Below the pieces are notes generated by a model. It searched no databases. It was not told where the DNA came from and saw nothing but the letters and a program-made list of their open reading frames with translations. Shown in pieces: positions 63,001-63,026 of a stretch of 64,000 nt of DNA. Both the position numbers and the translations under genes were made by a program. Each line of letters starts with the position of its first letter. Positions within the stretch are counted from its first letter, which is position 1. Source of the stretch: Escherichia coli (lineage in GTDB: Bacteria > Pseudomonadota > Gammaproteobacteria > Enterobacterales > Enterobacteriaceae); the NCBI RefSeq assembly GCF_003018255.1, contig NZ_CP027440.1. One strand, written 5' to 3'.

Positions 63001-63026
<26 letters not shown>

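What the first reader, a model, noticed from the sequence alone, without database searches (positions are those of the whole stretch)
63001..63026. Convergent 26-bp overlap of ycjG and mpaA coding ends
The last codons of ycjG (+) and mpaA (-) occupy the same DNA, so neither gene has room for its own terminator and their transcripts must be antisense to each other at the 3' ends. The two enzymes act on consecutive steps of murein peptide recycling, so reciprocal antisense interference is conceivable.
Basis: seen in the sequence. Interest (0 to 1): 0.2.

Follow-up and report, generated by a model that had tools for sequence, protein, structure and literature searches.

The report
Spacer-less convergent ycjG/mpaA gene overlap
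Two E. coli cell-wall-peptide recycling genes on opposite strands share their last 26 bases; the overlap is real, is already in the reference annotation, and looks like a by-product of the genes having no spacer rather than a new regulatory device.

Summary
ycjG (+, 62061-63026, stop TAG) and mpaA (-, 63001-63729, stop TGA) share 63001-63026. RefSeq annotates the same 26-bp overlap in K-12 MG1655, and the junction is >=99% identical in 5,363 of 5,414 matching complete E. coli genomes.

Across 85 Enterobacteriaceae and Erwiniaceae loci the genes almost always abut tail to tail, but the overlap length varies: 4, 10, 19, 21, 26, 33 or 47 bp. The conserved protein cores lie only 7 nt apart in E. 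coli, so any reading phase forces an overlap (4, 26 or 108 bp).

The 26-bp form differs from the widespread 10-bp form by a 1-nt indel at the ycjG stop (TGAG to TAG). This leaves ycjG unchanged, shifts the mpaA frame and adds five poorly conserved residues. Substitutions in the overlap follow the ycjG frame.

There is no intrinsic terminator or conserved hairpin at the junction. Published data place a Rho-dependent termination region on the ycjG strand about 390 nt inside mpaA (Adams 2021). ExcludonFinder (2025) already lists ycjG-mpaA as a convergent excludon.

Antisense transcript overlap is therefore real and already catalogued. Reciprocal regulation is untested, and the shared PgrR regulon and consecutive pathway steps argue against it. 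This is ordinary and known; interest is low.

The parts
62061..63026 (+). ycjG CDS (L-Ala-D/L-Glu epimerase, 321 aa), stop TAG at 63024-63026
   Evidence: ORF list. RefSeq annotation of an identical strain and of K-12. PDB 1JPD matches residues 1-321.
63001..63729 (-). mpaA CDS (murein tripeptide amidase, 242 aa), stop TGA at 63003-63001
   Evidence: ORF list. RefSeq annotation. PDB 5HXD matches residues 1-237 and Vibrio 4AXV aligns to residue 235.
63001..63026 (.). 26-bp shared coding stretch: the last 8 ycjG codons plus its stop, and the last 7 mpaA codons plus its stop and part of P235
   Evidence: Read directly from the sequence. Same overlap in 26 Escherichia, Citrobacter and Salmonella loci.
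63004..63024 (-). MpaA tail K236-S242, a poorly conserved extension beyond the conserved domain
   Evidence: The last eight residues P-K-D-A-I-R-P-S show 1, 2, 1, 4, 4, 8, 3, 1 variants in 23 species, against 1, 1, 2, 1, 4, 2, 2, 1 for YcjG F-T-T-G-E-L-H-L. Column entropy is 0.73 at mpaA codon position 2 and 0.06 at position 3. The Vibrio homologue and most genera end at residue 235-237.
63024..63030 (.). 7-nt linker between the two conserved protein cores. This is the indel hotspot that sets the relative reading phase (7 nt here, 8 or 14 nt in 10-bp-overlap genera).
   Evidence: Junction sequences of 82 loci and group consensus: CATCTTT-AGGATGCCAG versus CATCTCTGAGGCTGCCAG.
63000..63005 (+). 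ycjG Phe-Thr codons TT[C/T]-ACG that hold the mpaA stop on the other strand. T[C/T]A reads as TGA or TAA, so it is a stop either way.
   Evidence: mpaA stop is TGA where ycjG has TTC and TAA where it has TTT.
63027..63417 (+). ycjG 3' extension running antisense into mpaA, up to the published Rho termination region (MG1655 1390286 = window 63417)
   Evidence: Adams et al. 2021 Supp. file 2: reads upstream/downstream 47/14 without BCM and 58/68 with BCM, Rho score 3.94, p 7.2e-5. The coordinate conversion is my own arithmetic.
63350..63500 (+). C-rich, G-poor stretch on the ycjG strand; candidate rut region (inference)
   Evidence: GC skew -0.22 to -0.31 in 100-nt windows. It coincides with the published Rho region.
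63016..63030 (.). Small palindrome GCATC-TTTAG-GATGC across the ycjG stop; not conserved and probably incidental
   Evidence: It folds in E. coli but is absent in Salmonella and Citrobacter. RNAalifold finds no consensus hairpin.
61436..61942 (-). tpx CDS, the downstream neighbour on the mpaA strand. It belongs to the published 'mpaA-ycjG-tpx noncontiguous operon' call and to a dsRNA cluster.

Best explanation
ycjG and mpaA form a convergent gene pair with no spacer. Their conserved protein cores sit 7 nt apart, so each ORF has to find its stop codon inside the antisense of the other, and a coding overlap is unavoidable.

The 26-bp version seen in Escherichia, Citrobacter and Salmonella differs from the 10-bp version common in other Enterobacteriaceae by a 1-nt indel at the ycjG stop (TGAG versus TAG). 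The indel leaves the ycjG product unchanged, because one stop replaces another. It shifts mpaA by one base just before its old stop. MpaA then reads five more codons, to a T[G/A]A that lies inside ycjG's conserved Phe-Thr codons.

Inside the overlap, YcjG is the constrained protein and the MpaA tail is a passenger.

No intrinsic terminator is present. Transcription is ended inside the opposite gene. This is shown from published data for the ycjG strand (Rho-dependent, about 390 nt into mpaA) and inferred for the mpaA strand. The two mRNAs are therefore complementary over hundreds of nucleotides whenever both are made.

The most likely consequence is tolerated, low-level antisense overlap rather than a designed switch. 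That last step is inference.
For: - Overlap and annotation.
- 82 loci: overlap of 26 bp in 26, 10 bp in 45, 4 bp in 3, 33 bp in 1, 47 bp in 1, spacers in 5, and one locus with ycjG disrupted.
- Outgroups: Pantoea 26 bp with different stops, Erwinia 21 bp, Cronobacter 19 bp.
- The 1-nt indel is visible in the junction sequences and group consensus.
- Substitution pattern in the overlap follows the ycjG frame: entropy 0.73 at ycjG position 3 / mpaA position 2, and 0.06 at ycjG position 2 / mpaA position 3. Outside the overlap mpaA shows the normal pattern of 0.84, 0.20 and 0.055 at positions 3, 1 and 2.
- Any of the three phases gives an overlap: 4, 26 or 108 bp.
- In Citrobacter, single substitutions move both stops at once, giving ycjG 328 aa with mpaA 235 aa, or a 47-bp overlap.
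- No terminator-like site, no Rfam match, no conserved hairpin.
- Rho termination region antisense to mpaA, with a matching C-rich stretch.
- Shared PgrR regulon and consecutive enzymatic steps.
- E. coli has 75 convergent overlapping pairs, so this class is common.
Against: - The spacer-less arrangement is kept in about 93% of 85 loci across two families. That could reflect selection for the overlap rather than mere absence of insertions.
- ycjG third positions are less variable inside the overlap (0.73) than just upstream of it (1.57), so some dual constraint may exist.
- ExcludonFinder lists the pair as an excludon and mpaA-ycjG-tpx as a noncontiguous operon.
- The direction of the indel (deletion in the Escherichia lineage) rests on parsimony and on a phylogeny I did not compute. 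The outgroups have other geometries.
- The mpaA 3' end is unmapped.
Confidence: 0.75

Rival explanations
1. Functional convergent excludon. The lack of a spacer is selected so that ycjG and mpaA transcripts, or the converging polymerases, interfere with each other through RNase III cleavage of the duplex or transcriptional interference. This would tune the ratio of the two enzymes or make their expression mutually exclusive.
For: - ycjG-mpaA is in the E. coli excludon list, detected in >=50% of RNA-seq samples.
- The ycjG transcript extends about 390 nt into mpaA.
- The tail-to-tail abutment is conserved in Enterobacteriaceae and Erwiniaceae.
- The neighbouring tpx lies in a strong dsRNA cluster, so the locus is rich in antisense RNA.
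Against: - Both genes are listed in the same PgrR regulon and catalyse consecutive steps, so they should be on together.
- Overlap length and phase are not conserved.
- Five species carry an 88-331 bp spacer. The one I inspected has a canonical bidirectional terminator and still keeps both genes.
- The main text of the p19 study reports no dsRNA cluster at this junction.
- Read counts are very low, 47 reads per 800 nt, so polymerase collisions and duplexes should be rare.
- No experiment addresses this pair specifically.
Confidence: 0.15
2. Noncontiguous operons. The minus-strand transcript from mpaA runs through antisense ycjG into tpx, and/or the plus-strand transcript runs from tyrR through antisense tpx into ycjG. 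ycjG and tpx would then be embedded antisense genes that are co-ordinately controlled.
For: - ExcludonFinder lists mpaA-ycjG-tpx as one of three noncontiguous operons in E. coli.
- p19 dsRNA covers the whole of tpx, and a tyrR-ycjG read-through transcript has been proposed.
- Only one weak terminator-like site lies on the minus strand between mpaA and tpx, at 62027-62009.
Against: - The call is based on coverage, not on continuous reads for this locus as far as I could read.
- The minus-strand RNA antisense to ycjG is untranslated and C-rich (plus-strand GC skew up to +0.35), which favours Rho termination.
- tpx has its own promoter-like site at 61971-61944.
- No 3' ends or Rho regions naming ycjG appear in the Term-seq and BCM tables.
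Confidence: 0.07
3. Collision-driven overlapping bidirectional terminator. A hairpin in the overlap pauses polymerases from both sides, and head-on collisions define the 3' ends independently of Rho.
For: - Convergent pair without an intrinsic terminator.
- A small palindrome, GCATC-TTTAG-GATGC, sits on the ycjG stop in E. coli.
- The mechanism is documented for other E. coli pairs such as ynaJ-uspE.
Against: - The palindrome has a stem of only 5-6 bp and is not conserved. RNAalifold gives -0.9 and -1.5 kcal/mol with no hairpin at the junction.
- Published data show Rho dependence on the ycjG strand, about 390 nt beyond the junction.
- Low expression disfavours collision-driven release.
Confidence: 0.03
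4. Annotation artefact: one ORF really ends earlier, so there is no true coding overlap.
For: The PDB 5HXD chain of E. coli O157 MpaA stops at D237, five residues short.
Against: - There is no in-frame stop before 63003-63001.
- O157:H7 genomes have an identical junction, so the 237-residue chain is not a natural earlier stop (inferred). Even a 237-aa product would overlap ycjG by 11 bp.
- YcjG is conserved to its last residue, and PDB 1JPD includes it.
Confidence: 0.01

Closest known systems
Convergent (tail-to-tail) overlapping gene pairs of prokaryotes, formed by loss or shift of a stop codon with 3' extension
   Same: Opposite strands with 3' coding ends shared. The origin can be traced to an indel or substitution that moves a stop. 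E. coli has 75 such pairs.
   Different: Nothing essential. The notable details are that one 1-nt indel inside the partner's stop codon is silent for ycjG while frameshifting mpaA, and that the new mpaA stop is fixed by ycjG's Phe-Thr codons.
Convergent excludons (Sesto/Cossart concept; ExcludonFinder map of E. coli, NAR 2025)
   Same: Neighbouring genes on opposite strands whose transcripts overlap at their 3' ends. This pair is explicitly listed.
   Different: The defining mutually exclusive expression has not been shown. The genes share a repressor and a pathway, which predicts co-expression.
Rho-dependent termination of 3' extensions inside a convergent neighbour (Rho suppression of antisense transcription)
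   Same: A BCM-sensitive termination region lies antisense to mpaA, downstream of ycjG, within a C-rich stretch.
   Different: Known only at about 800-nt resolution and only for one strand. The rut site is not mapped.
Overlapping bidirectional terminators driven by RNAP collisions (Ju 2019; Wang et al. 2022, ynaJ-uspE)
   Same: Convergent pair lacking a canonical intrinsic terminator.
   Different: No conserved stem-loop, published Rho dependence on the ycjG strand, and low expression.

Membership tests
Convergent overlapping gene pair | Two protein-coding genes on opposite strands share their 3' coding ends | tested here: met
   Stops at 63024-26 (+) and 63003-01 (-). RefSeq gives the same ends.
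Convergent overlapping gene pair | Both ORFs are genuine genes up to their annotated ends | tested here: met
   PDB 1JPD and 5HXD matches. Orthologues in 85 loci. The junction is nearly invariant in 5,414 E. coli genomes.
Convergent overlapping gene pair | Origin by movement of a stop codon (3' extension) | tested here: met
   A 1-nt indel, TGAG versus TAG, separates the 10-bp and 26-bp forms. Citrobacter substitutions swap the stops.
Excludon (convergent) | Transcripts of the two genes overlap in antisense | not testable with these tools
   Not measured here. Published: the ExcludonFinder list and the Rho region about 391 nt past the ycjG stop, inside mpaA.
Excludon (convergent) | Expression of one gene lowers expression of the other (mutually exclusive or inverse expression) | not testable with these tools
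   I found no data for this pair. The shared PgrR regulon and consecutive steps argue against it.
Excludon (convergent) | dsRNA or RNase III processing at the overlap | not testable with these tools
   The main text of the p19 study reports a cluster at tyrR-tpx-ycjG (5' side), not at the ycjG-mpaA junction. I could not check the supplementary data.
Bidirectional intrinsic terminator | GC-rich hairpin flanked by an A-tract and a U-tract between convergent genes | tested here: not met
   No site near the junction and no conserved hairpin. In contrast, L043 has AAAAAACCCGCAT...ATGCGGGTTTTTTT in its spacer.
Collision-driven overlapping bidirectional terminator | Conserved stem-loop in the overlap | tested here: not met
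   RNAalifold on 68 unique junctions gives -0.9 and -1.5 kcal/mol with no hairpin at the overlap.
Collision-driven overlapping bidirectional terminator | Termination independent of Rho | not testable with these tools
   Not measured here. Published BCM data show Rho dependence on the ycjG strand, which is against this feature.
Noncontiguous operon | A single transcript joins mpaA and tpx across the oppositely oriented ycjG | not testable with these tools
   Listed by ExcludonFinder on the basis of coverage. I could not access any continuous-read evidence.
Known RNA families (Rfam 15) | Covariance-model match in 61300-64000 | tested here: not met
   0 matches at E<=1.

The most novel reading that the evidence does not exclude
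The tyrR-tpx-ycjG-mpaA block could be a conserved antisense module with no spacers. Read-through transcripts on both strands (tyrR through antisense tpx into ycjG and on into antisense mpaA; mpaA through antisense ycjG into tpx) would couple murein-peptide catabolism to thiol-peroxidase expression via RNA duplexes and Rho. The lack of a ycjG/mpaA spacer would then be maintained by selection for that coupling.
Probability: 0.08. Interest if true: 0.5.

Novelty: already known. Interest (0 to 1): 0.13.

Why it matters
It matters little in itself. The overlap is in the reference annotation, the class is common (75 convergent overlaps in E. coli), and transcript overlap at this pair has been catalogued.

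The comparative analysis does give a clean worked example of how convergent overlaps arise and drift. A single-base indel inside one gene's stop codon is silent for that gene and lengthens its neighbour. The constrained partner then dictates sequence evolution of the passenger tail.

It is also a caution against reading regulatory meaning into the length of a coding overlap. The RNA overlap is set by Rho termination hundreds of bases away.

Tried and rejected
- Intrinsic terminator scan around the junction: nothing near it.
- Rfam at a permissive threshold over 61300-64000: no match.
- The MFE fold of the minus strand has z = -2.3, and a small palindrome lies over the ycjG stop. I rejected this as an element because it is not conserved and RNAalifold finds nothing.
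- I first read the sequence upstream of mpaA in the best-hit strain as an IS421 breakpoint at about window 63860. That was wrong. It is a K-12-specific deletion boundary, and the real IS421 boundary would lie at about 64047, outside the window.
- My first overlap script over-counted where tblastn alignments ran through stops (247 bp, and 47 bp in three loci). I corrected this by scanning from the gene start.
- My first codon-phase table had an off-by-one error in the mpaA phase and was redone.
- Not held in the library: Ju et al. 2019 SEnd-seq and Shimada 2013 PgrR papers, and the supplements of ExcludonFinder and Dar & Sorek.
- The terminator scans of spacer-bearing species missed the L043 terminator because its loop is longer than 8 nt. 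I found it by eye.

Full report
**Observation**

On the plus strand the ycjG frame ends ...GAA TTG CAT CTT TAG, with TAG at 63024-63026. On the minus strand mpaA ends ...CGC CCG TCG TGA, with the stop at 63003-63001.

The 1.8-kb region is 100% identical to E. coli MDR_56 and is present in 5,413 of 5,426 complete E. coli genomes. RefSeq annotates the same gene ends there. In K-12 MG1655 ycjG is 1388930..1389895 (+) and mpaA is 1389870..1390598 (-). The overlap is therefore part of the reference annotation.

The 100-nt junction is >=99% identical in 5,363 of 5,414 genomes, O157:H7 included.

Both proteins are real to their ends:
- YcjG matches PDB 1JPD through L321.
- MpaA matches PDB 5HXD through D237, and the Vibrio enzyme 4AXV through residue 235.
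- O157:H7 has the same DNA at the junction, so I take the 237-residue 5HXD chain to be a truncated construct rather than a natural earlier stop (inference).

**Comparative anatomy**

A scan of one genome per species returned 80 loci encoding MpaA. I located both genes in each locus and found the first in-frame stop of each. Results for these plus two E. coli records:

| Overlap or spacer | Loci | Taxa or note |
|---|---|---|
| 26 bp | 26 | Escherichia, Citrobacter, Salmonella |
| 10 bp | 45 | Enterobacter, Klebsiella/Raoultella, Kluyvera, Leclercia, Lelliottia, Kosakonia, Trabulsiella and others |
| 4 bp | 3 | |
| 33 bp | 1 | |
| 47 bp | 1 | C. youngae ATCC 29220 |
| spacer of 88-331 bp | 5 | |
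| ycjG disrupted | 1 | C. koseri NCTC10786 |

Outgroups reached through protein homologues keep the mppA/mpaA/ycjG/tpx/tyrR order and also overlap, but with other stops. Pantoea has 26 bp (MpaA 235 aa, YcjG 327 aa), Erwinia has 21 bp and Cronobacter has 19 bp.

What is conserved is the lack of a spacer, not the 26 bp. In E. coli the last conserved YcjG codon (L321, 63021-23) and the last conserved MpaA codon (W233, 63031-33) are 7 nt apart. Reading mpaA in any of the three phases gives an overlap of 4, 26 or 108 bp.

**Origin of the 26-bp form**

The junction consensus of the 10-bp group is CTTCATCTCTGAGGCTGCCAGCGCAG. That of the 26-bp group is CTCCATCTTT-AGGATGCCAGCGCAG. The difference is one base at the ycjG stop, TGAG versus TAG.
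- For ycjG it changes nothing, because a stop remains at the same place.
- For mpaA it is a frameshift two codons before the old stop (...Q-R-*). Translation now continues K-D-A-I-R-P-S to a new stop.
- The new stop is the reverse complement of T[C/T]A within ycjG's conserved Phe-Thr codons, TT[C/T]-ACG. It is TGA or TAA whichever synonymous Phe codon ycjG uses, which matches the loci.

The 10-bp type occurs in many genera, and the 26-bp type of this geometry occurs only in Escherichia, Citrobacter and Salmonella. I therefore infer a deletion in that lineage. This rests on parsimony and on established phylogeny, not on a tree computed here.

Stops keep moving:
- In three Citrobacter species one T-to-A change turns the ycjG stop TAG into AAG and, on the other strand, the mpaA codon AGA into TGA. 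The result is YcjG of 328 aa and MpaA of 235 aa, again with 26 bp shared.
- In C. youngae ATCC 29220 the change TAG to CAG gives a 47-bp overlap.

**Which gene is constrained**

In the E. coli phase, ycjG third positions coincide with mpaA second positions, and mpaA third positions coincide with ycjG second positions. Mean column entropy among 22 distinct 26-bp-type junctions:

| Region | Codon position | Entropy |
|---|---|---|
| Overlap | ycjG pos3 / mpaA pos2 | 0.73 |
| Overlap | pos1 / pos1 | 0.33 |
| Overlap | ycjG pos2 / mpaA pos3 | 0.06 |
| mpaA only, just outside | pos3, pos1, pos2 | 0.84, 0.20, 0.055 |
| ycjG only, just outside | pos3 | 1.57 |

Sequence change in the overlap therefore follows the ycjG frame. 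The MpaA tail residues A-I-R-P take 4, 4, 8 and 3 different amino acids across 23 species, while FTTGxLHL is nearly fixed. The tail is a passenger. The drop in ycjG third-position variability inside the overlap (0.73 versus 1.57) leaves room for some dual constraint.

**Transcription**
- No intrinsic-terminator-like site lies near the junction on either strand.
- Rfam finds nothing in 61300-64000.
- A 5-6 bp palindrome over the ycjG stop folds in E. coli but is not conserved. RNAalifold on 68 distinct junctions gives about -1 kcal/mol and no hairpin there.

Published data fill part of the gap. Adams et al. 2021 (PMC7815308, Supp. file 2) list a Rho termination region at MG1655 1390286 on the plus strand, classed as antisense to mpaA. 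Reads upstream/downstream are 47/14 without bicyclomycin and 58/68 with it. The Rho score is 3.94 and p is 7.2e-5. That position is 391 nt past the ycjG stop, or window 63417. It falls in a C-rich, G-poor stretch of the plus strand (GC skew -0.2 to -0.3 at 63350-63500).

So ycjG mRNA extends hundreds of nucleotides into antisense mpaA and is ended by Rho. The method resolves this only to some hundreds of nucleotides.

No entry in those tables names ycjG, so the mpaA 3' end is unmapped. The minus-strand RNA antisense to ycjG would be untranslated and C-rich, so Rho termination there is a reasonable inference.

Sanmartin et al. 2025 (PMC12288877) list ycjG-mpaA among 165 convergent excludons. 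They also list tpx-ycjG among 16 divergent excludons, and mpaA-ycjG-tpx as one of three noncontiguous operons in MG1655. Huang et al. 2020 (PMC7373196) found one of the strongest p19-captured dsRNA clusters across the whole of tpx, possibly from a tyrR-ycjG read-through transcript.

**Interpretation**

However, it is much longer than 26 nt and is set by Rho, not by the coding overlap.

Reciprocal interference is conceivable and the pair carries the excludon label in one catalogue, but I found no experiment on this pair. Several facts argue against a designed mutually exclusive switch:
- MpaA and YcjG act consecutively, MpaA then YcjG then PepD.
- Both are listed in the PgrR regulon. K-12 RefSeq names PgrR a repressor.
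- Expression is very low.
- Overlap length and phase drift between genera.
- Five species carry a spacer. In L043 it holds a small hydrophobic ORF and a canonical bidirectional terminator (AAAAAACCCGCAT...ATGCGGGTTTTTTT), and both genes are intact.

Conservation of the spacer-less state in about 93% of loci across two families is the best argument for the functional rival, so I leave that rival at about 0.15.

**Comparison with known systems and verdict**

This is a member of the common class of convergent overlapping genes formed by stop-codon movement. E. coli has 75 such pairs, and the 3'-extension mechanism is described. At the RNA level it is a catalogued convergent transcript overlap with Rho-dependent termination inside the neighbouring gene.

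It does not meet the tests for a bidirectional intrinsic terminator or for a collision-type terminator with a conserved hairpin.

Nothing here is new in kind. The single-base origin of the 26-bp form and the passenger status of the MpaA tail are small additions.

- Novelty: already known.
- Interest: about 0.13.

Noticed in passing
window 63976-64000 (- strand), and beyond the window end: An 11-bp-stem hairpin followed by TTTATTAAAC lies upstream of mpaA. In many E. coli (for example APEC O2-211) it directly follows an intact 212-aa SDR oxidoreductase gene between ycjY and mpaA. A 200-nt probe from this region (L001:5761-5960, window 63759-63958, upstream of mpaA), half of which K-12 lacks, is covered >=80% in 2,937 of 5,426 genomes. 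K-12 has a deletion here that leaves the ymjC/ymjD fragments and removes this hairpin. mpaA may therefore be a separate transcription unit in most strains but fused to ycjY in K-12.
   Followed up: partly
L001 6048-7329 (would be window ~64047 onward, outside the window): In the 100%-identical strain MDR_56, an IS421 element replaces most of the SDR gene, ycjY, pgrR and the first 226 nt of mppA. That strain lacks the PgrR repressor and the murein tripeptide binding protein. I cannot tell whether the window comes from that strain.
   Followed up: partly
window ~63690 (- strand; MG1655 1390559): Adams et al. 2021 report an ORF-internal RNA 3' end 39 nt into mpaA in one growth condition, next to a GC-rich hairpin (GCGCCGAACGCGGCGC). 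This could be premature termination or attenuation of mpaA.
   Followed up: no
window 61436-61942 (tpx) and flanks: tpx is fully covered by antisense RNA. It is one of the 20 strongest p19-captured dsRNA clusters overlapping protein-coding genes in E. coli (S-116), possibly from a tyrR-ycjG read-through transcript. The only sigma-70-like site found in 61300-64000 is the tpx promoter candidate at 61971-61944 (-).
   Followed up: partly
L043 3727-4038 (also L046, L049, L053; L041 has an 88-bp spacer): A few Enterobacteriaceae have a spacer between mpaA and ycjG. The one I inspected (L043) holds a small hydrophobic ORF (...MIDTVAAVVLVLIVVAGLYFA) and a canonical bidirectional intrinsic terminator. 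The identity of the small protein was not examined.
   Followed up: partly
L015, L018, L020 (Citrobacter) and L022 (C. youngae ATCC 29220): A single T-to-A change at the ycjG stop turns TAG into AAG and, on the other strand, mpaA AGA into TGA. This moves seven codons from one gene to the other: YcjG becomes 328 aa and MpaA 235 aa. In L022, TAG to CAG gives a 47-bp overlap.
   Followed up: yes
L013 (Citrobacter koseri NCTC10786): ycjG appears disrupted: a premature stop at about codon 120 and only 57% identity in the best tblastn segment. This could be a pseudogene or an assembly error.
   Followed up: no
L049 (record titled Chryseobacterium sp. 18061): This locus encodes an MpaA 86% identical to that of E. 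coli, with the same mpaA-spacer-ycjG arrangement as L043 (record titled Citrobacter sp. 18056, same study). The record is probably mislabelled or contaminated.
   Followed up: no
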